64,000 nt of DNA from Verrucomicrobiales bacterium (GCA_031266335.1 JAISBF010000031.1:12507-76506), one strand, 5' to 3'; counted from the first letter of the stretch, positions 38,777 through 64,000 are shown. Numbers and translations are program-made. Notes: generated by a model from the sequence alone, not told the origin.

Positions 38777-38778
38777 GC

Positions 38779-40587: not shown

Positions 40588-40618
40588 CCCTGAAAAATGA
40601 AAGAAAGGCGAGGCTGAA

Positions 40619-41500: not shown

Positions 41501-41525
41501 CGGATCTGGCGAAAGATACCCCTCC

Positions 41526-43028: not shown

Positions 43029-43035
43029 TCCCGGC

Positions 43036-46413: not shown

Positions 46414-46464
46414 AATGATTGCGGCGGTGATCACTCTTTTTTATGCACCAAAACCAAGCGGCTT

Positions 46465-47250: not shown

Positions 47251-47279
47251 CCGCCAACCGATCAGATTTTCATTTTCTT

Positions 47280-49349: not shown

Positions 49350-49795
49350 TTTTCAACCGACTCGAAGAGGCCAGTCGTTTATACAACCTGCATTCCGGCT
49401 TTGCCAAAGCGTTTGAGTTTCTAAAGCAAGACGGCTTGGCAACACTGCCCATCGGCAGCTATGAGATCAATGGGGAACAGGTTTATGCTATGGTACAACA
49501 AGGCGTTGGCAAAGGGCCGGCCTCGGCCCGCCTGGAAACGCATAAAAAATATATTGATATTCAGTTTACGTTAACAGGGCTGGAGTTGATTGGTTGCGGC
49601 CACGCCAGGTGGCATCAACCCGATTCCCAAGGCTGGGATTACGCCAGGGACATTTGTTTTCTGACCGGGACTCCGGACTTTTGGCTGCTGGTGCCTGAGG
49701 GGAGTTTTGCCATTTTTTATCCAGAAGAAGATTTGCATGCTCCCATGTGCGGAAACGAAGCGGTGCGGAAGATTGTCGTAAAAGTGAGTGCCTAG
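49346..49795 (+). CDS. YhcH/YjgK/YiaL (DUF386, EbgC-like) family protein
   Basis: 149 aa with a 4-nt overlap on the upstream gene. Blocks LHSGFAKAFEFLK, HKKYIDIQFTLTGLELIG and FAIFYPEEDLHAPMC are typical of the family. Confidence 0.7.
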   Translation: MIFNRLEEASRLYNLHSGFAKAFEFLKQDGLATLPIGSYEINGEQVYAMVQQGVGKGPASARLETHKKYIDIQFTLTGLELIGCGHARWHQPDSQGWDYARDICFLTGTPDFWLLVPEGSFAIFYPEEDLHAPMCGNEAVRKIVVKVSA

Positions 49796-49805
49796 TTTAA
49801 CCGTC

Positions 49806-51200
49806 ATGAATGCCACCACTGAAGCAAACGGCGCCGTTGCCACGCCAAATCGCTATGCCGTTGGCACGCTGAAATATGACAAGCGCGCCATCGTGATTTT
49901 ATTCGGCTGGCTGTTATGGGGTGATTTTGCCTTCAATTTTTTCGAGTCGGTCTTCGGGCGGTTCATGCCGTTGTATCTCAAGGAGCTGAACGCTTCCAAT
50001 GTCTTCATCGGCATTACCACCGGCAGCGTCGCCGGCTTGGTCAATATCCTCTTTCTGCCCAATATCAGCCAATGGAGCGACCGATTGCGCGCCCGGCTGG
50101 GACGGCGCATTCCCTTTCTGTTGATTGTCACGCCCCTGACCACCCTATCCCTGCTGGCCATCGGCTTTGCGCCGGAAATCGGCGCCTTGACGCACCGGTA
50201 TTTGCCGTCGTTTTCCTGGCTGACCCAGACCGGGTTGGTGCTGTCCCTGTTGTGCCTGTTCACGATAGCGTTTCATTTTTTCAACATGATTTTGGTCAAT
50301 GTCTTTAACTGGCTGGTGCGCGATGTCGTTCCGCAAGTCCTGATGGCCCGCTTTCTCACCTGGTTTCGCGTCGTCGGGACCGTGGCAGCAATGTTGTTCC
50401 TTTGGTATGTCTTTCCCACGATGCTGTTCCACCGCAAGCTGACCTTCCTTCTGGTCGGCTTTTTCTATCTCGCCGCATTTCTGTTGATGTGCTGGAAAGT
50501 AAAGGAAGGCGATTATCCCGCGCCTGAATCTCGCGGTTCCGCTGATAACTTTTTGCGGCGTTTCGTCACTTATTTCCGGGACTGTCTGGGCATTCCGCTT
50601 TATCGCAATTTTTTTCTCGTCCATGTCCTGTTTGTCATCGGCAATGTTTGCGCCAATTACTCGTTTCTCACTCTTTATGCCCGGCATACCTTGCGCTTGG
50701 AAATGGAGGCCATGGGGCAAATCTACGCCTATGCCGCCCTGTTGAGCGCCGTGGTTTATATTCCGATCGGCTGGTTGTGCGGCAAGATTGGTGAAATGAA
50801 GGTTACGCTGGCCAGTCTGGTCACGCTGGTGATCGTGGCAATCCTGGCTTATTATTTGGTAACCGATCAAACCAGCTGGCTGGTCTATAGTCTCGTGTCC
50901 TCGCTTCCCGCGGTGGGATGGACGCTCGGTTCGCTCACGGTCAGCATGCGTCTGTTCCCGGAGAAAAGTTTCGGCCAGTTTGCGTCGGGCATCAATGTCT
51001 TCAGTTGCGGCGGCATGATTGCCGGCAACTACATCTGCGGAGAATACATGGATTTCGTGGATAGTAATTACCGGCTTATTTTCTGGTGGGTCGCGGGTTT
51101 TTGCACGCTGGCGATCGTGCCGATGGTGGCAGTTTATCGCGGCTGGAGACAACATGGCGGCCCCGATCACTACGTGGCCCCGTCGCCAATACGGAAATAG
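49806..51200 (+). CDS. MFS-type sugar transporter
   Basis: About 12 hydrophobic helices and a basic loop DRLRARLGRRIPFLL after TM2. The start was trimmed to the ATG at 49806 from the GTG at 49788. Confidence 0.65.
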   Translation: MNATTEANGAVATPNRYAVGTLKYDKRAIVILFGWLLWGDFAFNFFESVFGRFMPLYLKELNASNVFIGITTGSVAGLVNILFLPNISQWSDRLRARLGRRIPFLLIVTPLTTLSLLAIGFAPEIGALTHRYLPSFSWLTQTGLVLSLLCLFTIAFHFFNMILVNVFNWLVRDVVPQVLMARFLTWFRVVGTVAAMLFLWYVFPTMLFHRKLTFLLVGFFYLAAFLLMCWKVKEGDYPAPESRGSADNFLRRFVTYFRDCLGIPLYRNFFLVHVLFVIGNVCANYSFLTLYARHTLRLEMEAMGQIYAYAALLSAVVYIPIGWLCGKIGEMKVTLASLVTLVIVAILAYYLVTDQTSWLVYSLVSSLPAVGWTLGSLTVSMRLFPEKSFGQFASGINVFSCGGMIAGNYICGEYMDFVDSNYRLIFWWVAGFCTLAIVPMVAVYRGWRQHGGPDHYVAPSPIRK

Positions 51201-51240
51201 AATAATGAAACCTACTTTATCAGCATCAACCCCGTGACTT

Positions 51241-52446
51241 ATGCAAATGACTCCTCCCACTATTCTGCCTTGCCTGCAGGCCCGCCTCCAGGCTCAGGAA
51301 AATCTATACGCGTCGCGCAACCGGATTTCCTCCTCGGCCTGGTCCAATGGGATTTTCGACCGTTACGAACATCCGGTGCTCACCGCCGCGCATGTCCCGC
51401 TTGCCTGGCGTTTCGATTTTAATCCGGCCACCAATCCGCGCGGCCTCGAACGACTCGGCATCAATGCGGTGTTAAATCCCGGCGCCATTGAACTCAACGG
51501 CCGTTTTTATCTGATCGCCCGCGTCGAGGGCGCCGACCGCAAATCGTTTTTTGCCGTCGCGGAAAGCGCTTCCGGCATTGATCAGTTCCGGTTCCATGCA
51601 GATCCGATTTTGCTCGACCAAATCGACGATCCCGATGTCAACGTCTATGACATGCGGCTGGTGAAACACGAGGACGGCTGGATCTACGGGCTGTTTTGCA
51701 CCGAACGGCGCGATCCCACGGCTCCACAGTCCGACACCAGCAGCGCGGTCGCGCAATGCGGCATGGTCCGCACTCACGATTTGAAAAACTGGGAACGACT
51801 GCCTGACTTCAAATCATCCTCCGCCCAGCAGCGCAATGTGGTGCTGCATCCCGAATTCGTCAACGGTCGTTATGCCTTCTACACCCGACCGCAGGATGAT
51901 TTCATCTCGACCGGCTCCGGTGGCGGCATCGGCTGGGCTTTGTCCGCGTCAATGAATCCGGCGGTAATCGGTGCCGAGGAAATCATGGATCCGCGAGTTT
52001 ATCATACCGTCAAGGAGCTTAAAAACGGACAAGGGCCGGCCCCCTTGCGCACTTCCGCCGGCTGGCTGCATCTGGCGCACGGCGTGCGCAACACCGCCGC
52101 CGGGTTGCGTTACGTGGTCTATGCGTTGCTTTCCGATTTGCGCGAACCCGCCAAAGTGCTGCGGCGTCCCGCCGGCTACCTGATTGCCCCCGAGGGCGAG
52201 GAGCGAATCGGCGACGTAGCCAATGTCATTTTCTGCAACGGCGCCATCGCGCGGGAAAACGGCGACGTTTACATCTACTACGCCTCATCGGACACCCGCA
52301 TTCACGTTGCCACCAGCACCGTGGAGCGTTTGCTTGACTACGTCATGAACACCCCGGCAGACCCGCTTATTTCTTCCGAATGTGTGCGTCAGCGCCGGTC
52401 ATTGATTCACGCTAACCGTGAATTTTTGGCCGCCGCCCATTTATGA
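51241..52446 (+). CDS. GH130 family phosphorylase, 4-O-beta-D-mannosyl-D-glucose phosphorylase-like
   Basis: Long blocks match remembered GH130_1 sequence: [110 protein letters not shown] and [22 protein letters not shown]. Confidence 0.85.
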
Positions 52447-52532
52447 TTATGCGCCACGCTGACCATCACCTGACCGACGATTATTAGCTAGTGTCGCTGA
52501 TGGTAATCCATACGCCGGGAGCATCCCGGTGG

Positions 52533-53405
52533 TTATCTCGCCACGCCGGACGCTGACAATGGGATCGTCTGCGTCTCGGAAAGTTTGGCCCGCTCGGTCG
52601 CGTCCTTTTTGGTTAAACCGCCGACAAACTGCACCGTGCCGTGATCGCTTCTGGCCAGTGTCGGCGTCATGACCCCGGCGATGGACTGACGGTCCTCCTG
52701 GGCCAGAATGCCGCCATTGGCATCCGCCTCGGTGTAACGGTAATTCTTGGCGCTAATCACTTGCACGATATGAAGATTGCCCGTACGGTCAAACGCAATC
52801 TGCGGATCGGCAAAGGAGACCACTTTGCCCAACCGAACCGTGTTGTACATCAAATTCTGATCCGGTTCCTCCACCCGCAAATACAAATTCGCCTCGTTCA
52901 CATCCAAAAACCGCACCAGACTGTACACTCGTTTCACGCCGGTGTTGTAAACGTCTTGCGTCCAAATCGTCTCGCCCTTGCCCACAGTAAAATAAAGTTT
53001 GCCGGTCATGATAGGCTTCAGACCGGGAATGTGAACAATGGCTTGCGCGGTATAACCGCCGGTGGAGCGAATGGCGTAATAAGGCAAAATGTCCACGCTG
53101 ATCCGCTTGGTTTCCCCGGGCGCCAGGTTAATTTGTTTGGCGGTGATGCTTTTAACCTGATTGACCACGCCGCTGGCTTGGTTGAACACCAAAAAGCCCA
53201 GCCACGACTTACCGTCGTCATTCGCGCTCAGGCTGAATGGAGCGTCGGTCACGTTGGTTAACTCCAGGGTCAGGTCAATTGATTCATATTGCAGGTAAAG
53301 ACTGCGCTGTTGGGAAAATTGCACCTCCACCTGCGCTGACACTGGTGTCACGACCAGCCATGAAAATATCCCGGCACAAACCGCACAAATAAATTTCATT
53401 GGCAA
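52533..53405 (-). CDS. hypothetical secreted beta-rich protein
   Basis: 290-aa ORF with the signal peptide MKFICAVCAGIFSWLVVTPVSAQ. No motif was recognised. Confidence 0.5.
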   Translation of the reverse strand: MPMKFICAVCAGIFSWLVVTPVSAQVEVQFSQQRSLYLQYESIDLTLELTNVTDAPFSLSANDDGKSWLGFLVFNQASGVVNQVKSITAKQINLAPGETKRISVDILPYYAIRSTGGYTAQAIVHIPGLKPIMTGKLYFTVGKGETIWTQDVYNTGVKRVYSLVRFLDVNEANLYLRVEEPDQNLMYNTVRLGKVVSFADPQIAFDRTGNLHIVQVISAKNYRYTEADANGGILAQEDRQSIAGVMTPTLARSDHGTVQFVGGLTKKDATERAKLSETQTIPLSASGVAR

Positions 53406-53455
53406 ATATTATCGTAACAGCGTCAGCGTGACAATATTCATTTCCACCCCTGACA

Positions 53456-53492
53456 ACAAAAAGGCCGGAGGAAATATCCTCCGGCCTTTTCG
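53456..53492 (-). terminator. rho-independent terminator (bidirectional shape)
   Basis: aaaaaGGCCGGAGGaaatatCCTCCGGCCttttcg: a 9-bp GC stem at 53463-53471/53478-53486 flanked by an A-run and a T-run, about 30 nt downstream of the stop of the 53517-54302 gene. Confidence 0.8.
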
Positions 53493-53516
53493 TCAATATC
53501 AGCGGCAACCGCCGAT

Positions 53517-54302
53517 TCAGGCAACTGTCGCGGTATTTTTCGCGGCGGTGGCGGCGGCCAGGGCTTTTAGCCACGAACCGAAGAAGCGCGGTTTGCAGGC
53601 GGCGGCAAACAGCGCCGGGGCGTGTCTGCGCACCTCGCCGCTTTGCAGCCGTATTCCCTGGCGCTGCAAGTCGCGGATGCCGTCAATCACCATCGCACTG
53701 GTCCAGCGCCGGCGGCGGCGGATGCTGGCGTAATCAATCCCGGCTTTCTCCACCGCGGCGCCCCAGTTGCCGAACCGCCGGCGGGCGGTGGCGATCAGCG
53801 GGTTGGCAGTTTCATCCATGGTCTTCGAACTGAGATCCACGCCTTGCTCCTTGAGCCGGCGGATTTCGTCCAGAATGGTTTCCTCATTCCAGGAGCGGTA
53901 ACGGTAAATTTCGTTCGGCGCCAAACCGGCTGCCGTCAGCGCCGTTTTCCACGAGCCGAAATGCTTCGGGCGAATCGCCGCATAGACCATGCTGTTATAG
54001 GAACTGAGCATCATCGCGCGGAACGAAAGATCGGCGCCCTGTTTGAATAACTCCTGAATCTGCGCCACGATGCCGTCCTTGGTCCAATGCTGGTATTTGC
54101 GGACTTCATTGTATTGGATGCCGGCTTTTTCAACGGCGGCCTGCCAGCTGCCGTAGTAGCGGATGCCGGCCGCGAGCAATTCCTGGAAATTCTTGCGCAC
54201 ATGATGGGAATAGAGCGGCTCGCCGCGCAAATTCCATTGCCTGATTTCTTCCAGCACGATTGCTGCCGACCATTTTCTATTTTTACGTGAACGTGTTTTC
54301 AT
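53517..54302 (-). CDS. protein made of four tandem repeats of about 65 aa (homing-endonuclease-associated-repeat-like)
   Basis: The repeat core W..xxIxxxIxxLxxxGxxL...(Y/F)GSWxxAxxxAGI occurs four times: YGSWQAAVEKAGIQY, FGSWKTALTAAGLAP, FGNWGAAVEKAGIDY and FGSWLKALAAA. Confidence 0.45.
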   Translation of the reverse strand: MKTRSRKNRKWSAAIVLEEIRQWNLRGEPLYSHHVRKNFQELLAAGIRYYGSWQAAVEKAGIQYNEVRKYQHWTKDGIVAQIQELFKQGADLSFRAMMLSSYNSMVYAAIRPKHFGSWKTALTAAGLAPNEIYRYRSWNEETILDEIRRLKEQGVDLSSKTMDETANPLIATARRRFGNWGAAVEKAGIDYASIRRRRRWTSAMVIDGIRDLQRQGIRLQSGEVRRHAPALFAAACKPRFFGSWLKALAAATAAKNTATVA

Positions 54303-54483
54303 TGTAGCTTGACCTTTCTTTGTCAGTTTGGGGTTAAAAACATATCAACAGTAATTGTTCTTTCAATAATTGCAAGAACGGCATAACTCGCGCCGGTTTA
54401 TGTTGTTCGTAACTAATTGATTTTAAAATAGTTATAAATGTATTACATTTTAGTAATTAAGATGATAATCAATACCGATAATA

Positions 54484-55443
54484 TCAATCCGCCAATGATC
54501 GCCAGGCGGCGGCCACCTGTGCGGGGGTAATCGCCCGCAGGCACGCCATGCGGTTAGCCCGCTGGCAGTGACGGCGCAGGCACGGGCGGCACGACAAGTC
54601 GATTGTTAGCAGTTTCACCTGCCGGGCGCGCGGCGCGGTCTTGTGCGGGTCAGTCGCGCCAAACAAGGCCACCAGTGGACGGTCAAACGCCGCCGCCACG
54701 TGCAGCGGGCCGGAATCCGTGCCGACCACCGCGCGGGCCGCGCCCAGCAGCGTCAGCAAACCGCGCAGGTCCGTCTGGCCGCGCAAATCCAGCAGATTGG
54801 GCGCGGTGGCCGGGAAAAAATCCCCTTGGCCGACCAGCACAAACTTTTCCTCCGGCAGCAGTCGCGCCAGTTGCTCGTAATTCCGCCACGGCCACAGTTT
54901 CGTTTCCCATTTGCTGTACGGGTGCAGCACGGTGTAGCCGCCCGTCTGTAATCCGGCGGGTAATTCATCCGGCGGTCTAACTAATAATTGAGTATTAGCT
55001 ATGGCGTCGCCGCTGGCGGTGCCGGTCACGGTCAGCGCCGCGGTCAGGTAACGGTCCGTCGCGTGAGCCTGGACATCCGCCACCACCTCGTCGTAGGCCA
55101 GCCGCGACCACTCGCGGCCCGATTGCAAGCCCACCCGCCGCGCCGCGCGCACCGCCCGCGTCATCAGCGCGCTGCGCGCCAGTCCTTGCAAATCCAGTGC
55201 CAGGTCGAACTTGTGTCGCCGCAGGGTCAGCAGCCAGCGCGCGAACGCCGCCGGCGCGGCGCGCAGCCGCCGGCGCGGAAAGGTGATGAGTTCATCCACC
55301 CACGGGCACGCCGCCACCAGTGGCGCGTAATCCTCGTCCACCAGCCAGGCCAGCCGGCCGCCGCGCGACTTTAGCACCGGCGCCACCGTCAGCGCCTGCG
55401 CCACATCGCCGAGCGCGGTCGGCTTGATGACCAGCATATTCAC
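54484..55443 (-). CDS. glycosyltransferase family 9 (LPS heptosyltransferase-like)
   Basis: MLVIKPTALGDVAQALTVAPVLK at the N-terminus and GTDSGPLHVAAAFDRPLVALFGATDP near the C-terminus are typical GT9 blocks. Confidence 0.8.
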   Translation of the reverse strand: MNMLVIKPTALGDVAQALTVAPVLKSRGGRLAWLVDEDYAPLVAACPWVDELITFPRRRLRAAPAAFARWLLTLRRHKFDLALDLQGLARSALMTRAVRAARRVGLQSGREWSRLAYDEVVADVQAHATDRYLTAALTVTGTASGDAIANTQLLVRPPDELPAGLQTGGYTVLHPYSKWETKLWPWRNYEQLARLLPEEKFVLVGQGDFFPATAPNLLDLRGQTDLRGLLTLLGAARAVVGTDSGPLHVAAAFDRPLVALFGATDPHKTAPRARQVKLLTIDLSCRPCLRRHCQRANRMACLRAITPAQVAAAWRSLAD

Positions 55444-55480
55444 TGCGCCAGCCTAACCGCGCGCCGTGAAGTTACGAACA

Positions 55481-55515
55481 AAAAAGCCGCTGACAGTGAC
55501 TGCACTGTCAGCGGC
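55481..55515 (-). terminator. rho-independent terminator whose stem is an inverted pair of the abundant GCCGCTGACAGTG word
   Basis: gccgctgacagtg (55486-55498), a 4-nt loop, then cactgtcagcggc (55503-55515). On the minus strand the hairpin is followed by TTTTTTGTT. It lies 21 nt downstream of the SGNH hydrolase stop. Confidence 0.8.
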
Positions 55516-55535
55516 GGTTGGTGAATATCGCAATG

Positions 55536-56294
55536 TTATTGCAAATATTTGTCAATATACGGCTGAATGGCGTCGGCCCAGATCTGGTAACCGTTGGCGT
55601 TCGGATGCAAAAAGTCGGGCATGATGTCCTTGCCCAGCGTGCCGTCGGATTGCAGGAATTTGTCGCTGAAATCCACGAACACCACCTTGTCGCCGTCGTC
55701 CAGTTTGGCGATGGCGGCGTTGACTTCCTTGATTTTCGCGCGCCAGGGATGGTCGGCCTTTTCGTTGCGCGGGAAAATGGCTTGCAGCAGAATCACCGCG
55801 TCGGGACAGAGCTTGCGGTATTCCGCGACTATCGCCGTGACCCCGTCGATGATATCCTCGGCTGAGTTGCCGATGTTGTTGGTGCCGATCATGATGGCAA
55901 CCAGCTTCGGTTGCAGGCTGCTCATCTGGCCCTGCGACAGGCGCCACAGCACGTTTTCCGTGCGGTCGCCGCCGATGCCAAAGTTGAACGCGCCGTATTT
56001 CACATAGCGTTCCTGCCAGATTTTCTGTCCACCGCCGTGCCAGCCGTCGGTGATGGAATCGCCGTCGAATACCAGCTTGATGGACTGCGTGCGGTTTTGC
56101 GTCTGGGCGGCGTCGTTGCTGCGTTTCACCCGCTCCACCCATTCGGCGCGCGGATAAGGGAAGACGGTGACCTTGGCACCGGCCGGTCGGGACGGCAGTT
56201 CGGCGGGCATCGGCCACACCTTGGGATTGTTTTGGGCGTTAACGGCGACTACGCTCACGAGCGCCATGACGGATGTAAGAAGGAATTTCTTCAT
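55536..56294 (-). CDS. secreted SGNH/GDSL hydrolase
   Basis: Blocks I-V: VFDGDSITDGW, GIGGDRTENVLWRL, AIMIGTNN and DFLHPNANGYQIWA. Signal peptide MKKFLLTSVMALVSVVAVNA. The start was trimmed to 56294. Confidence 0.8.
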   Translation of the reverse strand: MKKFLLTSVMALVSVVAVNAQNNPKVWPMPAELPSRPAGAKVTVFPYPRAEWVERVKRSNDAAQTQNRTQSIKLVFDGDSITDGWHGGGQKIWQERYVKYGAFNFGIGGDRTENVLWRLSQGQMSSLQPKLVAIMIGTNNIGNSAEDIIDGVTAIVAEYRKLCPDAVILLQAIFPRNEKADHPWRAKIKEVNAAIAKLDDGDKVVFVDFSDKFLQSDGTLGKDIMPDFLHPNANGYQIWADAIQPYIDKYLQ

Positions 56295-56380
56295 TCCGTC
56301 CAACTTAATGAATTGCCGCTGATGGTCAACTCTTAAACTGCGTTGGCTAACCGTTTGGCCGCCGAAATTTTCATCAGCGG

Positions 56381-57157
56381 TCAATGATCGGCCGGTTGAA
56401 AGAATTGTTGTTCCGTCGGAATGGCCAGGGTGATTTCCAGTTTTTGAATATGTTCCTTGACCACATCCCAGCGATGCTGATCAACGCCGTGTTCCTTGAA
56501 ACTCTGCCACAAGTGTCGCCAGTATTCGTAAGCTTCCCGGTCTTGCTCTGCTTTCTCCAGCATAAAACCGACAAATCTTTCCAGATATAACGGCGCCTTC
56601 GGCCGCTGCAATGCTTCTTTATAACATTCCGCGGCTTGCTCGTAATTGCCCAACCGTCGCCAATACAAGTCGCCCAGGCGCTGGTATAAAATCGGCTTTT
56701 CGGGAATCACCCGGATGCCGCGCTCCAGCAAATCCTTGCCCGCCTCAATCCACATTCTGGCATCATGCTTGCGCCGGTCGAGGCCTCCCTTGACCGGGCC
56801 GTGCTCGACCGCCACGCTCGCGTTCCACGCCAGATTCCACGCCCCCATGTCCCAAAAAAACGCCACCCGCGGCTGCAACAGCACGCACATTTCCGCCAAC
56901 GCCGCCACCCGCTCCCATTCCTGTTCCTGCCAAGCGCCGGTCAGCGAAAGCCACAGCGAATCCGCCGCCAGGCCGCGAAACCCGCCCAACGCCGCCATGG
57001 TGAAGCCCTGTCCCAGACTGTCACGCAATTGGTAACTCATCGGCAAGTCCTGCCCCACCATCACCACTTTGCGCTCGGCGGCCAGCCGGTTTTCCCAACC
57101 GACTTTTCCCGCGCCCCAGATGACGATCAGCGCCAATGCCAGCAACCGGAGTTTCAT
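56381..57157 (-). CDS. hypothetical membrane-anchored TPR-like protein
   Basis: N-terminal TM segment MKLRLLALALIVIWGA and a helical C-terminal half (LGNYEQAAECYKEAL). It overlaps its neighbours by 4 nt. Confidence 0.45.
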   Translation of the reverse strand: MKLRLLALALIVIWGAGKVGWENRLAAERKVVMVGQDLPMSYQLRDSLGQGFTMAALGGFRGLAADSLWLSLTGAWQEQEWERVAALAEMCVLLQPRVAFFWDMGAWNLAWNASVAVEHGPVKGGLDRRKHDARMWIEAGKDLLERGIRVIPEKPILYQRLGDLYWRRLGNYEQAAECYKEALQRPKAPLYLERFVGFMLEKAEQDREAYEYWRHLWQSFKEHGVDQHRWDVVKEHIQKLEITLAIPTEQQFFQPADH

Positions 57158-58035
57158 AATTCGCGGCTTTCAAATAACAGCGAGGAAACTCCCAGCGCGA
57201 TGACCGTGTATCCCCCCGTATAAAGCAGGATGTGCCGCGTGTTGAGCCACAGCACCCGGTTGCCGCCGATAATTTCATCAATCAGGTTGAACGTCTGGAA
57301 ATCCGGGATGAGCAGCGAAATCGCCGCCAAAAAAACGGTGGTGAGCCAGCTGGCGCCACTCTCCGGCGCCAGCCAAAAATCCCGCGCCACCGACTGCAAG
57401 TGGCCGATCAAATACACAAACAGGGTGCAACTGACAATGAACACGGTGGAGGATGCCAGCGTGGAGAAAAACACGCTGATCACCGTCACCAGGCACAACT
57501 TCGCCCACACCAGCGTCAGCGCCTGCCACATCGCCGGATCATACGCGCCGGCGCGAAACTCATTGATCTGCTGCAACTGGAGTTCGGTCGGCCGCCCCTG
57601 GCTGGTCGCCATGATGTCGTTGGTCAGCGAACTCTCGTGGCTCCACATCACCAGCATGAAAATCCCCGCCATCAACGCCATGAACAAGGTCAGCAGCAGC
57701 GTCAGCCCCAGATACTTACCGACGATGAATTCAAACTTCCGCACCGGCTTGCTCAACAGCGTGTAAATCGTGCGCTTCTCCAACTCCGCCGGAATCAGCA
57801 TGGCCGCCCCTAACAAGGCAACCAGCAGACCAATCACGCTGATGGCGGCGTAGGCCAAATCCTTCATGAACTTGAACTCGTCGCCGTGAAAATCGAACTG
57901 CGTGTAAAAGCTCGACCCGCCCAGCATGATCAGGCAGAACACCGTCAGCACATACAACACTTTTTGCCGGATGGCCTCGGTAAAGGTGTTGCCGGCGATG
58001 GCCAAAATATGACACAAACTGTTTTTCATGATCAC
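57154..58035 (-). CDS. ABC-2-type transporter permease
   Basis: Six or seven hydrophobic helices. It overlaps the upstream ATPase gene by 4 nt. Confidence 0.65.
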   Translation of the reverse strand: MIMKNSLCHILAIAGNTFTEAIRQKVLYVLTVFCLIMLGGSSFYTQFDFHGDEFKFMKDLAYAAISVIGLLVALLGAAMLIPAELEKRTIYTLLSKPVRKFEFIVGKYLGLTLLLTLFMALMAGIFMLVMWSHESSLTNDIMATSQGRPTELQLQQINEFRAGAYDPAMWQALTLVWAKLCLVTVISVFFSTLASSTVFIVSCTLFVYLIGHLQSVARDFWLAPESGASWLTTVFLAAISLLIPDFQTFNLIDEIIGGNRVLWLNTRHILLYTGGYTVIALGVSSLLFESREL

Positions 58036-58880
58036 TTGCTCACTGCGCGAATAAAATAATCCTCAAGCTGCTGCTTCGGCTGCGTCACCGCGATCAGCTC
58101 CGCGCCCGCGTTTTGCAACCAGGCCACCAGCTGCTCCTGCAACTCCGGCGTCAGGCCGCTGACGGTGACTTGACGCTGTCCTTGCACCGATAGTAACTCG
58201 TCCAGCGTCCCCTCCTGGATTTTTTTGCCGCGATGAAGAATAATCACCCGGTCGGCGACTTCCTGCACCTGCTCCAGCAAATGCGAGGAAAAAATAATCG
58301 TCTTGCCGCGCTTTTTCAGCGCCAGAATCAAGTCGCGAATCTGCCGCGAGCCGACCGGATCGACGCCCGCCGTCGGCTCGTCCAGCAACAGCAAATCCGG
58401 GTCGTGCAACAGCGCCTGCGCCAGCCCGACGCGCTGCAACATGCCCTTGGAATAAGTTTTCAACGCCCGGCCCGCCGCCGGTTGCAGGCTCACCAACTCA
58501 AGCAATTCCTCCACCCGCGCGCGCAAGCGCTGGCCGTGCAAATCCACCAGCTTGCCGTAGTAATTCAACACCTCGCGTCCCGATAAAAAACCGGGAAAAT
58601 ACGGATTTTCCGGCAGAAACCCGAGCCGCCGTCGCGAGGCCAGCGAGCCGGCCTCCTGGCCAAACACCCGCGCCTGCCCCGTCGTCGGCCTGATCAAGCC
58701 GAGCAACAACTTCAGCGTCGTGCTTTTGCCGGAACCGTTGGGGCCGAGCAAACCGAACACCTCGCCCCGCCGGACTCGCAGGTCCAGGCCATCCAGCGCC
58801 AGTAATCGTTTGCGCGTCCATTCCAACGTGAAAGTCTTGGTCAGGTTCGCGGCGCTGACGGCGAAGTCTGGTTCGTTCAT
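58032..58880 (-). CDS. ABC transporter ATP-binding protein
   Basis: Walker A GPNGSGKST, signature YSKGMLQRVGLA, Walker B LLLLDEPTAGVD. Confidence 0.9.
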   Translation of the reverse strand: MNEPDFAVSAANLTKTFTLEWTRKRLLALDGLDLRVRRGEVFGLLGPNGSGKSTTLKLLLGLIRPTTGQARVFGQEAGSLASRRRLGFLPENPYFPGFLSGREVLNYYGKLVDLHGQRLRARVEELLELVSLQPAAGRALKTYSKGMLQRVGLAQALLHDPDLLLLDEPTAGVDPVGSRQIRDLILALKKRGKTIIFSSHLLEQVQEVADRVIILHRGKKIQEGTLDELLSVQGQRQVTVSGLTPELQEQLVAWLQNAGAELIAVTQPKQQLEDYFIRAVSK

Positions 58881-59149
58881 GGCAGAATATTGAATCCTCT
58901 CAATTGCGCATCAACCGCCGCGTCACTGCTCTCGACCGACTTGATATGCCCGTTCAAGTGACTGCGCGCAACATCATCCGCCATCGCCGCCACCTCATCG
59001 TCAGCGCCCTGCAGGAACAACTCCACCCGCCCGTCCGGCAGATTGCGGACATAACCGGTCACGTCGAACCCCGCCGCGATTTGGCGCACGGAATAACGAA
59101 ACCCGACGCCCTGCACGCTGCCGGTGTAGAAAAATTTCCGCGCCTTCAT
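58877..59149 (-). CDS. acyP: acylphosphatase
   Basis: 90 aa with GSVQGVGFRYSVRQIA...GYVRNLPDGRVE. Confidence 0.85.
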   Translation of the reverse strand: MKARKFFYTGSVQGVGFRYSVRQIAAGFDVTGYVRNLPDGRVELFLQGADDEVAAMADDVARSHLNGHIKSVESSDAAVDAQLRGFNILP

Positions 59150-59394
59150 GGCGACAGATCATAAAAGCGCGCTACACTGCTGGCAACATGAAACCCGCCC
59201 GCCGAAAAGTTGTCCGACCGAAAAAAAACGCCGCTGACCGTGACCGTGCTCCCACCAGGCGCGCCGTCCGCGCCGAGTTGTACCGGCCGGAAAACCTCGA
59301 AAAAGCCCGCCGTCTTGACCGCGGCCCGATTGTATAAAGCGCCGCTGACGATGTCCCGAAATCAATCCGGCTGGTTTTCCGCCGGCGCTGGCCG

Positions 59395-59429
59395 CAAAAA
59401 ATAAAAACGCCCGGCCGGACGGTCGGGCG
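59395..59429 (-). terminator. rho-independent terminator downstream of rplS
   Basis: The stem cgcccggcc/ggtcgggcg lies at 59408-59429. On the minus strand it is followed by GTTTTTATTTTTT. It sits about 25 nt after the rplS stop. Confidence 0.75.
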
Positions 59430-59453
59430 CTGATATTGAAGGCAAACCGTGAA

Positions 59454-59828
59454 TTATTTCGCGGCGGCTTTGGCAGCTTTAGCGGCCTTGCGGTCCACGG
59501 ATTTGACTTCCATGGTGCCCTTCTTCTTGCGGAGATAGCCGAGGCTGGCGCGCCGGACTTTGCCCTGGATTTCGACCACGACCTTTTCAATGAAAGGCGA
59601 GTGAATCGGGAACACGCGCTCGACTCCCTCGCCGTAGCTGATGCGGCGGACGGTGAAAGTGGCGTTGATGCCGCTGCCTTTCTTACCGATGACGATGCCG
59701 GCATAGTTCTGGATGCGTTCTTTTTCGCCTTCCTTGACGCGGGTGGAAACCTTCACGGTATCGCCGACGCTGAAGCTCGGTATTTCCTTCTTGAGTTGTG
59801 CGCTCTCGATTTTTTCTATCGCTTTCAT
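59454..59828 (-). CDS. rplS: 50S ribosomal protein L19
   Basis: FSVGDTVKVSTRVKEGEKERIQNYAGIVIGKKGSGINATFTVRRISYGEGVERVFPIHSP. Confidence 0.95.
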   Translation of the reverse strand: MKAIEKIESAQLKKEIPSFSVGDTVKVSTRVKEGEKERIQNYAGIVIGKKGSGINATFTVRRISYGEGVERVFPIHSPFIEKVVVEIQGKVRRASLGYLRKKKGTMEVKSVDRKAAKAAKAAAK

Positions 59829-59839
59829 ATCATTTGTTT

Positions 59840-60580
59840 TTATTGCTGGTCGTTTGCCGCCGCGTTTAACGGCGACTTTACGCTACCAATGTTCTTGCTT
59901 TTTTCCAGCAGGTCCTTCCGACGTTCCGACGTCCTCCGGGCTGCCTGTTCTTTTCTCCATGCGCTAATGGCGGCATGGTGGCCTGTTAATAAAATCTCCG
60001 GCACTTTTCTGCCGCGAAACTCTTCCGGGCGCGTGTATTGCGGGCCTTCCAGCAAGGCGTCGGCGCCGAACGAATCCATTTGCGCCGAGGCCTCGTTGCC
60101 CAGCACACCGGGCAACAGCCGCACCACGGCGTCAATGACGATCAGCGCCGCGATGGTGCCGTTGCTGAGGACATAGTCGCCAATGGACAATTCCTCGTCA
60201 ATCCAGCCCTCGCGCACGCGCTCATCCACGCCCTCGTAATGTCCGCTGACAAAGATCAATCGCTCCAGCCTGCTGTATGCCAGCGCCTTCGCCTGGTCGA
60301 ATTTCACGCCTTCCGGCGTCAGGTACACGACCCTGCCCCTGACCGCTTCCCGCGTTTGCACGCTCTCGATGCATTCGACGAGCGGCTCGCATTTCATCAC
60401 CATCCCGGGACCGCCGCCAAACGGGCGGTCATCCACCGTGCGATGTTTCGCGCGCGCGTAGTCCCGAATGTCATGGACATCAATTCGCACCTGCCCGCCG
60501 CGCTGCGCCCGACTCACGATGCTGGCCTGCAACGGCCCCGCCAGCATTTCGGGAAACAACGTCAGGACGTCAATTTTCAC
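59840..60580 (-). CDS. trmD: tRNA (guanine37-N1)-methyltransferase
   Basis: [12 protein letters not shown]...[14 protein letters not shown]...[10 protein letters not shown]...[10 protein letters not shown]. Confidence 0.95.
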
Positions 60581-60592
60581 GTCCCGGCCCCC

Positions 60593-60829
60593 TTAGTTGG
60601 TTTCCACGAGCTCAATCTGCACTTGCTTGCCACCCTTGGCGGCGACGGCATTGCACAGGTTGCGAATCGCGAAAATCGTGCGGCCTTTTTTGCCGATTAC
60701 CCTGCCGATGTCGAGCGAATTTAAACGCACCAGACAGTCAATGCCATCCGGCCGTTCCGTCATTTCGACCTCCACTTCCCCCGCGCGTTGCACCAATGCG
60801 GAAACCACAAATTCCACAAAGTATTTCAT
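60593..60829 (-). CDS. KH-domain RNA-binding protein (UPF0109/YlqC-like)
   Basis: 78 aa with the GRVIGKKGRTIFAIR GxxG loop, in the conserved position between rpsP and trmD. Confidence 0.85.
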   Translation of the reverse strand: MKYFVEFVVSALVQRAGEVEVEMTERPDGIDCLVRLNSLDIGRVIGKKGRTIFAIRNLCNAVAAKGGKQVQIELVETN

Positions 60830-60859
60830 ACGCGGTAAAGTTCACTGTCAGCGCCGGTC

Positions 60860-61114
60860 TCAGGCCTTGGCGGCCTTGGCTTGCGCCTTTTTCACCAAGT
60901 GCCTGACCGTGTCGCTGGCCTTGGCGCCCTGGGCGAGCCAATGTTCGACGCGCTCCAGTTTGAGTTGTTTTTCCTGGTTCTTGCCGATCGGATCGTAGGA
61001 ACCCACAATCTCGATGAACTTGCCGTCACGGGGCGCGCGCTTGTCCGCCACCACCACGTTGTAAAACGGCCTGTTTTTCGCGCCCTCACGGCGCAGACGA
61101 ATCACTACTGCCAT
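60860..61114 (-). CDS. rpsP: 30S ribosomal protein S16
   Basis: MAVVIRLRREGAKNRPFYNVVVADKRAPRDGKFIEIVGSYDP. Confidence 0.95.
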   Translation of the reverse strand: MAVVIRLRREGAKNRPFYNVVVADKRAPRDGKFIEIVGSYDPIGKNQEKQLKLERVEHWLAQGAKASDTVRHLVKKAQAKAAKA

Positions 61115-61135
61115 ATATAATCACCTGTTCTTTCG

Positions 61136-62473
61136 CTACCTGCCCGCCGACCCTATGCCGCCGAACAGTCGCTTTAGTTTATTCTCCCGATTGCCGCCCT
61201 TGAACAGCTTGCCCAGCATTTTCTGCATGGCACGGAAGCGATGCAACAGTTCGTTGACTTCCGTCACGCTGGTGCCGCTGCCCGTGGCGATTCTTTGGCG
61301 ACGTTTCGCATTCAAAACCTCGGGGCGTCGCCGTTCCTGAAAAGTCATGGCACTGACAATCGCCTCCGTTCGCTTTAACACTTTATCGTCCAGAGAGAAA
61401 TTTTGCATACTACCCATGCCGGGCAACATGCCAAGCAGATTTTGCAGCGGCCCCAATTTTTTTAACTGCCTCATCTGATCCATGAAATCCTGCAAGTCAA
61501 ATTCCGCGTTGCGCAATTTGGCTTCCATTTTGGCGGCGTCCTCCAAATCGATCTGCTCCGCGACCTTCTCCGCCAGCCCGTACAAATCGCCCATGCCCAG
61601 CAGCCGCTGGATGAGACGGTCAGCGTGGAACGCCTCAAACTGCTCCGCGCGCTCGCCGGTGCCGATGAACTTGATGGGCACCCCGGTCACCGCCTGCAAC
61701 GAAAACGCCGCGCCGCCCTTCGCGTCGCCGTCGAACTTTGACAGCACGATCCCCGTCAGCGGCACCGCCGCGTGAAACGCCCGCGCCACCTCCGCCGCGC
61801 TCTGGCCCAGCGCCGCGTCCGCCACCAACAGCGACTCGTCAGGGGTGATTTGCGTCGCGGCATTTTTTAGCTCGGCCAACAACTCCGCGTTGATTTCCGT
61901 GCGCCCCGCCAAGTCGAAAATGGTCACATCGAACCGGCCATTGGCAGCGTGCGCCAGCGCCGCCTGCAAGTGTGTTGGCAAATTCATCCCCGGCGCCGGC
62001 GCGAAAACCTCAAGTTCATGCTGCCGCCCCAAAGTTTGCAACTGTTGCACCGCCGCCGGACGACTCAAATCCGCCGCCACCAGCAAGACTTTTTCCCGCT
62101 GTTTCTTCAACATCAGCGCCAGCTTGCCCGCCGTGGTGGTCTTGCCCGCGCCGTTCAAACCGCACAGCGCCACCGTCAGCGGCCGCCGCGCTGACAGTGC
62201 GCCGTCGCCCGCCTGGAAAATCGCCAGCAACTCATCGTGCACCACCTTGACGAACATATCGCCGGGCCGGATGGATTTGCTGAATTCCTCGCCCAGCGCC
62301 TTGGCCTTGACCCGCTCGCAAAAATCCCTGGTAACCCGATAATTGACATCCGCCGCCAGCAGCGCCAGCCGCACCTCGCGCAACGCCTCCGCCACATTGC
62401 TTTCCGTCAGCCTGCCGTAACCGCGCAGCTTGGAAAACACGCCTTGAAATTTATCTGCCAATTGCTCCAGCAT
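61136..62473 (-). CDS. ffh: signal recognition particle protein Ffh (SRP54)
   Basis: GLNGAGKTTTAGKLA, DLAGR and TKFDGDAKGG-like blocks, plus a Met-rich M domain. Confidence 0.95.
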   Translation of the reverse strand: MLEQLADKFQGVFSKLRGYGRLTESNVAEALREVRLALLAADVNYRVTRDFCERVKAKALGEEFSKSIRPGDMFVKVVHDELLAIFQAGDGALSARRPLTVALCGLNGAGKTTTAGKLALMLKKQREKVLLVAADLSRPAAVQQLQTLGRQHELEVFAPAPGMNLPTHLQAALAHAANGRFDVTIFDLAGRTEINAELLAELKNAATQITPDESLLVADAALGQSAAEVARAFHAAVPLTGIVLSKFDGDAKGGAAFSLQAVTGVPIKFIGTGERAEQFEAFHADRLIQRLLGMGDLYGLAEKVAEQIDLEDAAKMEAKLRNAEFDLQDFMDQMRQLKKLGPLQNLLGMLPGMGSMQNFSLDDKVLKRTEAIVSAMTFQERRRPEVLNAKRRQRIATGSGTSVTEVNELLHRFRAMQKMLGKLFKGGNRENKLKRLFGGIGSAGR

Positions 62474-62555
62474 GGGAAAAATAATCTAGGGACGAACCAG
62501 CCCCGGCGCAAAGCAAAACTCCACCCGCTGACCGTGCCCGTCGAATTGGTTACCG

Positions 62556-63368
62556 TCAGCGCCCGCGACCGCCGCCCCAGCCGCCGCCGCGTCCGCCCGG
62601 GCCGCCCGGACCACCGCCACCACCGGGACGGATTTCGGCGTCAATGCCCCGCGATTCCTGCTCCACGGCCTTCATGTAGTCGGGATAAGTTTTCCACCAT
62701 TCGCGGCGTTCCTGCAAATAATCAAACAACGGCAGGTTGGTGTTCAGCCGGCTGAGCAGGGTTTCCCGCTCGGTCAGCATGGCCTGGATTTTCTCGCCGT
62801 CAGCGCGCTTGGCGATGGCGGCCAGCACGTCGGTTTTCATCATCTGGTACAATGCGGAATCCAGCGGCACCAGGCTTTCCTCGCGGCCATACCAAAACTC
62901 GCTGGCCTGAATCGCCGCGTATGCCTTGTCAAAATATTCCAGGATGCCTTCGGGCGTCTGGTTGTCGGCGGAACGCTGTTTGCGAAACACTGCCGGTGAC
63001 CGGCGCGACAGGGATTGTTTCATGAGAAACAGGTATTCCTCGGGCTTGATGCCGTACAGCCGGTTGGCGGTCTCGCCAAGGATGGGATTGACATAGGCGT
63101 CAATTTCCAGGATGCGCTTGGTGGCTTTGTCGTTCTGTTCCTGGACTTTTTTGACCAGTTCATTGACATTATTGACGGCTTGCATGCCGAGCGTGAACTC
63201 GTCGTTGGCCTCCTGGTTTCGTGCCGTGCCGCTGACGGTGGTCGCGGCGGTACCGCTGGCGGTGGCGCTGCCAGTGGCAGTGGCGGCGGCCTTGCCGCGA
63301 TAATCCTGCCCGTGCGCCGGCGGCCAGGCCAGGGCCAGCAATCCCAGTATCAGCGTAATCGGTTTCAT
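62556..63368 (-). CDS. hypothetical secreted protein with a Gly/Arg-rich C-terminal tail
   Basis: Signal peptide MKPITLILGLLALAWPPAHG. The tail is RPGGGGGPGGPGGRGGGWGGGRGR. The stop TGA lies inside a CGCTGACGG copy of the abundant word. Confidence 0.5.
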   Translation of the reverse strand: MKPITLILGLLALAWPPAHGQDYRGKAAATATGSATASGTAATTVSGTARNQEANDEFTLGMQAVNNVNELVKKVQEQNDKATKRILEIDAYVNPILGETANRLYGIKPEEYLFLMKQSLSRRSPAVFRKQRSADNQTPEGILEYFDKAYAAIQASEFWYGREESLVPLDSALYQMMKTDVLAAIAKRADGEKIQAMLTERETLLSRLNTNLPLFDYLQERREWWKTYPDYMKAVEQESRGIDAEIRPGGGGGPGGPGGRGGGWGGGRGR

Positions 63369-63925: not shown

Positions 63926-63955
63926 TACCTCCCGCCTTTAATCTACCGCATTTTA

Positions 63956-64000
63956 TCACCGCGTTGTTTTGAAATTCTGGTCCGCCGCGCGCTCGAACGC
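63956..64000 (-). CDS. 3' end of an unidentified minus-strand gene entering from the window edge
   Basis: An open frame reads ...AFERAADQNFKTTR then TGA (63958-63956). Only 14 codons are visible. Confidence 0.3.
   Translation of the reverse strand, partial: AFERAADQNFKTTR

What the first reader, a model, noticed from the sequence alone, without database searches (positions are those of the whole stretch)
55481..55515. A terminator built from an inverted pair of the abundant word
The hairpin gccgctgacagtg-actg-cactgtcagcggc is followed on the minus strand by TTTTTTGTT. It sits 21 nt after the SGNH hydrolase stop.

A weaker inverted pair lies immediately after the 62556 gene: cgctgaccgtg at 62527-62537 and taccgtcagcg at 62551-62561. 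In that case the TGA of the word is the stop codon itself.

Use of an over-represented word as paired terminator arms is the arrangement known for uptake sequences in Neisseria and Haemophilus. It therefore helps discriminate between the hypotheses for the motif.
Basis: partly seen in the sequence, partly recalled or inferred. Interest (0 to 1): 0.55.

Follow-up and report, generated by a model that had tools for sequence, protein, structure and literature searches.

The report
Terminator hairpin made from abundant word
A textbook transcription-stop hairpin after a lipase-like gene is built from two opposite copies of an 11-14-base word that saturates this uncultured Verrucomicrobiales genome; the word has the genomic hallmarks of the DNA "uptake sequences" known only from Neisseria and Haemophilus relatives, and a sister species uses a different "dialect".

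Summary
The main hairpin is real. Arms 55486-55498 and 55503-55515 are 13/13 complementary with a 4-nt loop. On the minus strand TTTTTTGTT follows directly, 20 nt after the SGNH hydrolase stop. It is the best terminator-like site in 18 kb (-24.7 kcal/mol; z -5.9). Both arms are full copies of the word G-N-CGCTGAC-NN-TG.

The second, weaker pair exists but folds no better than shuffled sequence, so it is not evidence.

The word is a DNA-level signal, not a protein motif. There are 150 copies in 64 kb, on both strands and in four reading frames. CDS holds 144 copies against 16 after synonymous-codon shuffling. The word is nearly absent from IS elements and from two atypical segments.

Close relatives share it. 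One sister lineage, seen in three assemblies, instead carries CGCTAAY-GGCG at about 2.6 per kb, with orthologous sites switched.

The pair-to-terminator rule could not be tested genome-wide. In this window convergent pairs are not in excess, 13 of 15 lie inside genes, and two other terminators lack the word.

Verdict: a probable intrinsic terminator co-opted from two word copies. An uptake-sequence-like role for the word is plausible but unproven, and the hairpin adds little to that case.

The parts
55503..55515 (-). 5' arm of the RNA hairpin (minus-strand reading GCCGCTGACAGTG). It is a full copy of the word with the favoured G at -2.
   Evidence: 13/13 complementary; extended motif.
55499..55502 (-). 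Loop, CAGU in the minus-strand RNA.
55486..55498 (-). 3' arm of the RNA hairpin (CACTGTCAGCGGC), the reverse-complement copy of the word.
55476..55485 (-). U-tract (TTTTTTGTTC) directly after the stem. An A/T run is not part of the word's usual flank, so it is an independent terminator feature.
   Evidence: (only 9 of 218 words have an A-rich 5' flank, and the only uninterrupted A6-A8 runs are the 2 non-coding cases).
55536..56384 (-). Upstream gene: secreted SGNH/GDSL hydrolase. The likely true start is the MKKF... methionine at 56294. Its stop lies 20 nt before the stem.
   Evidence: (PF13472, 6.7e-29).
54484..55443 (-). Downstream co-directional gene: GT9 heptosyltransferase-like. It starts 32 nt after the U-tract.
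   Evidence: (PF01075, 6.6e-36).
62526..62561 (-). The 'weaker inverted pair' (arms 62526-62536 and 62551-62561). The word's TGA is the stop codon of the 62556-63368 gene. It is NOT a significant structure.
   Evidence: (z -0.09).
1..64000 (.). Background. There are 150 copies of CGCTGACNNTG (218 of the core CGCTGAC) on both strands. Consensus is G-N-CGCTGAC-[G/C/A]-G-T-G-A. The word is densest in the glycoside-hydrolase array at 8500-36970 (3.9 per kb). It runs at 1.5-1.6 per kb in ordinary genes and is nearly absent from 1-5157, 36971-39750 and 47280-52446.

Best explanation
The element at 55476-55515 is a Rho-independent terminator for the minus-strand SGNH hydrolase transcript. It has a 13-bp, 9-GC stem with a 4-nt loop, followed immediately by U6GUU.

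Its two arms are opposite-orientation copies of a clade-specific, hyper-abundant DNA word (G-N-CGCTGAC-NN-TG-A).

The word is selected or driven at the DNA level, independently of what it encodes. Its most likely role is a 'self DNA' recognition tag of the uptake-sequence type. On that model a surface receptor prefers DNA carrying the word, and biased uptake plus recombination spreads the word through native DNA.

The terminator is then a co-option. Where a hairpin is needed after a gene, two nearby copies of a word that works in either orientation supply the stem, and only a T-run has to be added.

Shown: the hairpin, the T-run, its position, the word statistics and the dialects.

Inferred: that termination actually occurs (my estimate about 0.75-0.8). 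Also inferred: that the word is an uptake sequence (about 0.4-0.45), with some other genome-wide sequence-specific drive taking most of the remainder.
For: Terminator:
- Perfect 13-bp inverted repeat, -24.7 kcal/mol alone, z -5.9 in context.
- The U-tract is flush with the stem, on the strand of both flanking genes only, and the stem starts 20 nt after the stop.
- The lineage does use canonical hairpin + U-tract terminators elsewhere: 53463-53486 (z -9.3), and rplS terminators in the window, L131 and L002.
- The A/T tail is not supplied by the word's own flanks.
- The variable NN positions match in both arms (AG/CT), as pairing requires.
- The hairpin is identical in a 96.9%-identical relative, L004. 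It sits in a 202-nt stretch (55373-55574) with no differences, where about 8 would be expected.

Word as a DNA-level signal:
- 143 of 150 copies are in CDS, spread over four frames (LTV 42, ADG 39, TVS 43, PSA 18). There are none in the frame where TGA would be a stop.
- 144 observed in CDS vs 16.4 +/- 3.8 after synonymous shuffling and 1.5 after codon-order shuffling. The excess holds both inside the GH array and outside it.
- Both orientations are similarly common (96:122 for the core).
- About 1.1 per kb outside the array, by division counts. IS region 0 per 2.8 kb, 47%-GC flank 0.39 per kb, 47.3-52.4 kb 0.19 per kb.

Lineage specificity and dialects:
- The word is abundant in L001, L002 and L004. 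It is absent from Methylacidiphilales-level relatives L003, L132 and L135.
- L131, L136 and L137 come from three samples and have Ffh 87% identical to the window's. They carry CGCTAAC/T-GGCG-A at 2.5-2.7 per kb and lack CGCTGAC.
- In L131 CDS there are 44 copies vs 4.5 +/- 2.0 after shuffling, and 13 of 20 CTA leucine codons lie inside the word.
- Orthologous sites switch dialect. One example is CCG CTG ACG -> CCG CTA ACG in ffh. Others are an N/D amino-acid swap in ffh and the intergenic site between rpsP and the downstream KH-domain gene.

Known precedent for word-pair terminators.
Against: - There are no transcript data, so termination is inferred from sequence only.
- No sigma-70-like promoter was found in the 32 nt between the U-tract and the GT9 start. 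A strong terminator here implies either a non-canonical promoter or GT9 expression by read-through.
- There is only one solid word-pair terminator in about 100 kb of clade sequence. None was seen in the A-dialect loci. Convergent pairs show no excess, and most pairs are intragenic. In Neisseria, by contrast, hairpin pairs are almost all intergenic (3 of 231 intragenic).
- 95% of words are in CDS, against about half of DUES lying in terminators.
- No competence genes, receptor or uptake data are available for this uncultured lineage. Uptake sequences have never been reported outside two proteobacterial families.
- The word is extremely dense in the GH array (3.9 per kb, at 66% GC). Part of this is inherited among paralogs (82 copies on 34 alignment columns), and no model explains the rest.
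Confidence: 0.6

Rival explanations
1. The hairpin terminates transcription as described. The word, however, is not an uptake sequence but some other genome-wide sequence-specific signal. Candidates are a recombination or repair signal (Chi-like), a binding site for a nucleoid or self-recognition protein, or a motif kept abundant by a sequence-specific repair or conversion system linked to a DNA methyltransferase (as has been proposed for cyanobacterial HIP1; from my own knowledge).
For: No uptake machinery or receptor has been seen. 95% of copies are intragenic, and pairs are not enriched, unlike Neisseria. Dialects, frame independence and depletion in foreign DNA are expected of any specificity-driven genome-wide signal, not only of uptake.
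Against: Orientation is nearly balanced (96:122), whereas Chi and KOPS-type signals are strongly strand-skewed (my knowledge). A density of 1-4 per kb for an 11-14-mer is far above Chi. An excess of roughly 9-fold over synonymous shuffles and 90-fold over codon-order shuffles seems too large for a deamination-repair bias. The word is not palindromic, unlike HIP1.
Confidence: 0.3
2. The hairpin is a functionless by-product. Two copies of a very dense word happened to land head-to-head in a short intergenic region, and the T-run is coincidental.
For: Words are dense. Close inverted pairs arise at the rate expected by chance across the window and even inside signal-peptide codons. The weak pair at 62526 is such a case.
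Against: The arms match at all 13 positions, including both variable NN positions and both flank positions. A T6 run starts exactly at the stem end, on the transcribed strand only, 20 nt after a stop. A-rich flanks are rare among words. By my arithmetic counts, only about 0.05 such intergenic pairs are expected. There are no substitutions in 202 nt relative to a relative that is 4% diverged locally.
Confidence: 0.12
3. The palindrome is a DNA-level protein-binding site, either a dimeric regulator's operator for the GT9 gene or a recombinase site. Alternatively it is one copy of a REP/MITE-like palindromic repeat, rather than an RNA terminator.
For: It is a perfect palindrome lying just upstream of a gene start.
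Against: The complete hairpin occurs once in the window and once, orthologously, in L004. The word itself is mainly intragenic, so it is not a REP or MITE. The flush, one-sided T-run is a terminator feature and has no role in an operator. Rfam finds no matching family.
Confidence: 0.04

Closest known systems
Inverted-repeat DUS terminators of Neisseriaceae (GCCGTCTGAA ... TTCAGACGGC)
   Same: An abundant 10-12-mer occurs at about 1 per kb on both strands. Two opposite copies in the +- configuration form a long (11-13 bp) terminator stem after genes. Related taxa carry dialects, and foreign DNA is depleted (window).
   Different: The word sequence is unrelated and the phylum is different (Verrucomicrobiota). 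Here 95% of copies are in CDS and most close pairs are intragenic. In N. meningitidis only 3 of 231 hairpins are intragenic, and about 55% of high-confidence terminators carry the DUS. The T-tail here is not supplied by the extended motif. No ComP-type receptor or uptake evidence is available.
USS pairs in Pasteurellaceae terminators (AAGTGCGGT)
   Same: The word is mostly intragenic, is tolerated in several reading frames and in poorly constrained protein regions, and is occasionally paired as a terminator stem.
   Different: The sequence is different, and there is no AT-rich extended 3' motif. An excess of pairs is documented there and not seen here.
Canonical Rho-independent (intrinsic) terminator
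   Same: A GC-rich stem-loop followed immediately by a U-tract, just downstream of a stop codon, on the gene's strand.
   Different: Nothing structural differs. The only unusual point is that the stem sequence is dictated by a genome-wide word.
Cyanobacterial HIP1 (GCGATCGC) hyper-abundant word (from my own knowledge)
   Same: A very dense short word inside coding regions in several frames, with lineage-specific variants and an unexplained drive.
   Different: HIP1 is a palindrome; this word is asymmetric and occurs in both orientations.
Chi / KOPS-type oriented signals (from my own knowledge)
   Same: A species-specific over-represented oligomer.
   Different: Those signals are shorter and rarer, and they are strongly skewed to one replication strand. 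Here orientation is 96:122 within a 64-kb window.

Membership tests
Rho-independent terminator | Stable GC-rich stem-loop | tested here: met
   13 bp, 9 GC pairs, loop of 4, -24.7 kcal/mol; z -5.9 in context.
Rho-independent terminator | U-rich tract immediately 3' of the stem on the transcribed strand | tested here: met
   UUUUUUGUU is flush with the stem on the minus strand. There is no T-run on the plus strand.
Rho-independent terminator | Location just downstream of a stop codon of a co-oriented gene | tested here: met
   20 nt after the SGNH hydrolase stop.
Rho-independent terminator | Transcript 3' ends map to the U-tract | not testable with these tools
   No RNA data are available for this uncultured MAG.
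DNA uptake sequence (DUS/USS, 'DUES') | Short word at roughly 1 per kb, with both orientations about equal | tested here: met
   150 copies of the 11-mer pattern in 64 kb, and about 1.1 per kb outside the GH array. Orientation is 96:122.
DNA uptake sequence (DUS/USS, 'DUES') | Abundance is a DNA-level property: several reading frames, beyond codon usage and protein sequence | tested here: met
   Four frames are used. 144 observed vs 16.4 after synonymous shuffling and 1.5 after codon-order shuffling. L131: 44 vs 4.5.
DNA uptake sequence (DUS/USS, 'DUES') | Lineage-specific, with dialects among related taxa | tested here: met
   The G dialect is found in the window, L004, L001 and L002. The A dialect (CGCTAAY-GGCG) is found in L131, L136 and L137. 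More distant relatives have none.
DNA uptake sequence (DUS/USS, 'DUES') | Depleted in mobile or recently acquired DNA | tested here: met
   IS region 0 per 2.8 kb. 47%-GC flank 0.39 per kb. 47.3-52.4 kb 0.19 per kb. Elsewhere 1.5-3.9 per kb. One window only.
DNA uptake sequence (DUS/USS, 'DUES') | Excess of closely spaced inverted pairs, mostly intergenic and in terminators | tested here: inconclusive
   There is one perfect intergenic pair. No excess over the orientation permutation (4 vs 2.2, P 0.17). 13 of 15 pairs are in CDS. No whole genome was available.
DNA uptake sequence (DUS/USS, 'DUES') | Word-bearing DNA is preferentially taken up, and a cognate receptor exists (ComP-type minor pilin) | not testable with these tools
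   No culture and no complete genome. No competence genes were seen in the loci fetched.
Neisserial DUS / Pasteurellaceae USS (sequence families) | Core GCCGTCTGAA-type or AAGTGCGGT-type sequence | tested here: not met
   The core here is CGCTGAC / CGCTAAY. This is not a member of either sequence family.
REP / MITE-like palindromic repeat | Whole palindromic unit repeated at many intergenic sites | tested here: not met
   The 30-nt unit occurs once in the window. Words are 95% intragenic.
Chi / KOPS-type oriented signal | Strong skew to one strand within a replichore | tested here: inconclusive
   96:122 in the window argues against it, but the replication direction is unknown.

The most novel reading that the evidence does not exclude
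An uncultured Verrucomicrobiales clade (MAG-only) has independently evolved a DNA-uptake-sequence system, or another genome-wide self-recognition word system. Sister species have switched dialect (CGCTGAC-NGTG to CGCTAAY-GGCG) and rewritten thousands of sites, including rare codons and amino acids. The 55486 hairpin is the first example of this word being co-opted as a terminator. It would be the third known uptake-sequence lineage and the first outside Proteobacteria.
Probability: 0.4. Interest if true: 0.8.

Novelty: new variant of a known kind. Interest (0 to 1): 0.55.

Why it matters
Uptake sequences are the textbook example of a genome-wide sequence 'signature' created by biased DNA uptake. 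They are known from only two proteobacterial families.

A third, unrelated lineage would offer several things. It would have a very dense, mostly intragenic word. It would also include a dialect switch between species whose ffh-KH segment is only about 19% diverged at the nucleotide level. Together these would give an independent test of the molecular-drive model. They would also provide a natural experiment on receptor/word co-evolution, and a handle for predicting competence and gene-flow barriers in uncultured gut or soil Verrucomicrobia.

The terminator itself is ordinary biology. Its value is as a small, consistent piece of the analogy, and as a concrete site where termination can be checked in metatranscriptomes.

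Tried and rejected
1. Metagenome-wide scan for the pair pattern CGCTGACNGTG-N2-10-CACNGTCAGCG. None of the metagenome loci (L008-L127) exceeded 0.64 further words per kb (the window has 2.3; most had none), and many are GC-rich. These look like chance LTV...TVS coding coincidences.

2. The same pattern in viral contigs gave 0 hits.

3. Orthologues of the SGNH gene, to test conservation of the hairpin. Only the same species turned up (98% identity, the L004 contig). The next hits are <=68% identical, and the only ones with retrievable DNA (L128-L130) lack the word. Two other look-ups had no DNA.

4. IS transposase as a route to other places in the same genome. There is no relative above 62% identity.

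5. Exact look-ups of the window's Ffh and of P0121 are not on record, so the source contig (81,571 nt, MDR1303926.1) could not be extended.

6. Rfam and tRNA scans of the window found nothing.

7. The word at 59232 followed by T8 was considered as a second word terminator. It has no significant hairpin (z +0.59) and was rejected.

8. The weak pair at 62526 was rejected as a structure (z -0.09).

9. The maximal-order Markov expectation for the 7-mer is uninformative, because the sub-words are enriched too.

10. My strict perfect-stem terminator scan misses terminators whose stems run into the A/T tails or contain mismatches. It could not be used as a census.

11. Protein-repeat explanation for the word (for example a TVSA motif in repetitive glycosidases). 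This was rejected because of four-frame usage and the synonymous-shuffle result.

Full report
THE OBSERVATION

At 55486-55515 the window reads GCCGCTGACAGTG-ACTG-CACTGTCAGCGGC. The repeat finder reports arms 55486-55498 and 55503-55515, 13 nt, 100% complementary, 4 nt apart. On the minus strand the stem is followed at once by TTTTTTGTTC (55485..55476). On the plus strand no T-run follows.

The flanking genes are both on the minus strand:
- an SGNH/GDSL hydrolase (55536-56384; PF13472, 6.7e-29), whose TAA stop lies 20 nt before the stem;
- a family-9 glycosyltransferase (54484-55443; PF01075), which starts 32 nt after the T-run.

The 76-nt RNA context folds at -28.2 kcal/mol, against -12.95 +/- 2.58 for shuffles (z -5.9). 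The hairpin alone is -24.7 kcal/mol. It is the top terminator-like site in 46-64 kb.

The second item is the weak pair. The TGA inside the word really is the stop codon of the 62556-63368 gene. However, it pairs only 7 bp + mismatch + 2-3 bp around a long loop, and it folds no better than shuffles (z -0.09). The T-rich stretch behind it is conserved upstream of ffh in relatives that lack both the pair and that upstream gene. I therefore read that stretch as part of the ffh upstream region. Only the first item is above chance.

THE WORD

The core CGCTGAC occurs 218 times in 64 kb (96 forward, 122 reverse). The pattern CGCTGACNNTG occurs 150 times, and CGCTGACGGTG alone 53 times. The flanks give a consensus of G-N-CGCTGAC-[G/C/A]-G-T-G-A.

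Of the 150 copies, 143 lie inside genes. They are spread over four reading frames:
- sense xCG-CTG-ACG-GTG (LTV): 42
- sense GCT-GAC-GGT (ADG): 39
- antisense ACC-GTC-AGC (TVS): 43
- antisense CCG-TCA-GCG (PSA): 18
- antisense HRQR: 1
- the frame where TGA would be a stop: 0

Coding sequence holds 144 copies. Shuffling synonymous codons within each gene leaves 16.4 +/- 3.8, and shuffling codon order leaves 1.5. The excess holds in the glycoside-hydrolase array (112 vs 12) and in the remaining genes (32 vs 4.4). The word is therefore a DNA-level signal that has shaped both codon choice and amino-acid sequence. It is not a protein repeat.

Part of the array's count is inherited among five paralogs of about 1330 aa that are 75-83% identical (82 copies on 34 alignment columns). 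Even so, each paralog still carries about 4 copies per kb.

Density is very uneven:
- 0 copies in the 2.8-kb IS region
- 0.39 per kb in the 47%-GC left flank
- 0.19 per kb in a mannoside-utilisation cluster at 47.3-52.4 kb
- 1.5-3.9 per kb elsewhere

WHOSE GENOME, AND THE DIALECTS

Ffh places the window in uncultured Verrucomicrobiales MAGs. The source-like contig carries MDR1303926.1.

A 96.9%-identical relative (L004) has the identical hairpin. Two relatives with 81-82% Ffh identity (L001, L002) also carry the word, at 1.1-1.7 per kb. Relatives at 70-75% (L003, L132, L135) and unrelated controls do not.

The unexpected result concerns a sister lineage with 87% Ffh identity. It was sampled in three assemblies from three samples (L131, L136, L137). 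It has almost no CGCTGAC. Instead it has CGCTAAC/CGCTAAT at 2.5-2.7 per kb, with the logo G-N-CGCTAA[C/T]-G-G-C-G-A.

In L131 coding sequence there are 44 copies against 4.5 +/- 2.0 after synonymous shuffling. Thirteen of its 20 CTA leucine codons sit inside the word.

Orthologous sites have switched dialect:
- In ffh, CCG CTG ACG in the window becomes CCG CTA ACG in L131.
- In ffh, GCG CTG ATG becomes GCG CTA ATG.
- One ffh site encodes Asn in the A-dialect genome (GCT AAT) and Asp in a G-dialect genome (GCT GAC).
- In the intergenic site between rpsP and the downstream KH-domain gene, CGGCGCTGACAGTGAA becomes AGCCGCTAACGGCAAA.

A further relative, L134 (84% Ffh identity, only 2.6 kb), shows neither dialect.

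The architecture is shared while two positions have changed. This is the pattern described as 'dialects' for the neisserial DUS.

IS THE PAIR-TO-TERMINATOR ARRANGEMENT GENERAL?

I could not obtain a whole genome. The viral scan returned nothing. Routes through SGNH orthologues and through the IS transposase failed.

Within the window:
- Fifteen word->reverse-word pairs lie within 40 nt. Thirteen of these are inside genes, and two of them are in signal-peptide codons.
- Permuting orientation labels among the word positions gives 2.2 convergent pairs at gap <=12, against 4 observed (P = 0.17).
- Two other good terminators are not made from a word pair. These are 53463-53486 (z -9.3) and the rplS terminator.
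- In L002 the rplS terminator does carry a full word in its 3' arm.
- The A-dialect loci show no intergenic pair.

In N. meningitidis, by contrast, 228 of 231 DUS hairpins touch intergenic DNA, and about 55% of high-confidence terminators contain the DUS. A 2025 survey puts about half of all DUES inside predicted terminators. On present evidence the arrangement here is one clear case, not a rule.

WHY I STILL CALL IT A TERMINATOR

- All 13 positions pair, including the two variable NN positions and the two flank positions.
- The T6 run begins exactly at the stem end and only on the transcribed strand.
- A-rich flanks are not part of the word. Nine of 218 copies have an A-rich flank (>=5 A among 8 upstream bases), and the only two that are uninterrupted A6-A8 runs are non-coding. 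In Neisseria and Haemophilus the extended motif itself supplies the tails; here the tail is an independent feature.
- With 7 intergenic words in 2.9 kb, I estimate about 0.05 such pairs by chance (arithmetic).
- The 202 nt around the element are identical between the window and L004, although the surrounding 2.1 kb differs at 4%.

Against this, no sigma-70-like promoter is seen between the tail and the next gene, and there are no RNA data.

MECHANISM

Shown: the structure, its position, the word's statistics and the dialects.

Inferred:
- RNA polymerase transcribing the hydrolase gene terminates at the U-tract (about 0.75-0.8).
- The stem arose by co-option of two nearby word copies. This is the 'evolutionary expediency' argument of Kingsford et al..
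- The word itself is maintained by a sequence-specific, strand-symmetric, lineage-specific process acting on native DNA.

An uptake-sequence system fits the following: the density, the balanced orientation, the frame tolerance, the depletion in IS and atypical DNA, and the dialects. I give it about 0.4-0.45.

The main rival is another genome-wide specificity-driven signal (repair- or methylation-linked, recombination, or a binding protein), at about 0.3. It is favoured by the overwhelmingly intragenic location and by the lack of any competence evidence.

Chi/KOPS-type signals fit poorly, because the orientation is balanced and the density is too high. A REP/MITE origin is excluded by the intragenic location. 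A protein repeat is excluded by frame usage.

COMPARISON AND NOVELTY

The hairpin is a member of the class of intrinsic terminators by every sequence criterion.

It works like a DUS/USS inverted-repeat terminator, but it is not a member of either sequence family. The core is different, the phylum is different, and uptake is untested.

No paper in the searchable library mentions this word or uptake sequences in Verrucomicrobia.

I file it as a new variant of a known kind. The terminator alone is modestly interesting. The word system it belongs to, and especially the dialect switch, is the part worth following.

Noticed in passing
L131 1-17328; L136 1-21338; L137 1-11378 (relatives with 87% Ffh identity): A sister lineage carries a different dialect of the abundant word: G-N-CGCTAA[C/T]-GGCG-A at 2.5-2.7 per kb instead of CGCTGAC-NGTG. 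Orthologous sites are switched, and 13 of 20 CTA leucine codons lie inside the word.
   Followed up: yes
L134 1-2605 (84% Ffh identity): This relative shows neither dialect. At orthologous sites it uses TTG instead of CTG/CTA. This could be loss of the system or a third dialect, but 2.6 kb is too little sequence to tell.
   Followed up: partly
window 8500-36970: A minus-strand array of glycoside-hydrolase genes. It holds five paralogs of about 1330 aa (75-83% nt identity), three DUF2961 proteins and a GH36-like melibiase. GC is 66%, against about 57% elsewhere, and word density is the highest in the window (3.9 per kb). The reason for the extra density and GC is unexplained.
   Followed up: partly
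window 10544-10573 and 12610-12640; L004 3494-3528: Inverted word pairs sit inside signal-peptide codons (for example GAALTVSTLSAAA). The word seems to accumulate in sequence-tolerant hydrophobic leader regions. These pairs are coding, not terminators.
   Followed up: partly
window 8317-8497: A near-perfect palindrome of about 180 nt (nested arms of 34-38 nt, 87-94% complementary; fold about -88 kcal/mol). It fills the gap between the convergent GH38 and DUF2961 genes and overlaps both stop codons, at the boundary where GC jumps to 66%. It could be a bidirectional terminator or a MITE-like element. It contains no word.
   Followed up: partly
window 36971-39750; 47280-52446; 1-5157: Three word-poor segments. 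The first holds IS5- and IS1595-type transposase genes (0 words). The second is a GH38-like / YhcH / MFS / GH130 mannoside cluster (0.19 per kb). The third is a 47%-GC flank with an O-antigen-ligase-like gene (0.39 per kb). They may be recently acquired DNA.
   Followed up: partly
window 55373-55574: 202 nt around the hairpin are identical to L004, although the surrounding 2.1 kb differs at about 4%. The stretch covers the 3' end of the SGNH gene, the intergenic region and the 5' end of the GT9 gene. This reflects either constraint or a recent recombination tract.
   Followed up: no
window 59222-59245 (minus strand): A single word (CACGGTCAGCGGCG) is followed by T8 in the 304-nt gap after rplS, but no significant hairpin forms (z +0.59). 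It may be a decayed terminator or part of an unannotated small transcript. A second word lies at 59343.
   Followed up: partly
L002 4330-4400: Downstream of rplS in this relative there are two strong hairpins. The first has the word CGCTGACGTTG across its loop. The second (CGCCCGCTG...CAGCGGGCG + T7) is the terminator and carries a full word in its 3' arm.
   Followed up: partly
window 53406-53434 (minus strand): A promoter-like site (TTGTCA - 17 nt - TAATAT) upstream of the 52533-53405 gene has a word (CGCTGACGCTG) in its spacer.
   Followed up: no
window 53517-54302: A gene for a protein made of 'homing endonuclease associated repeat' units (PF18780) but with no nuclease domain found. It is followed by the strongest canonical terminator in the window (53463-53486).
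   Followed up: no
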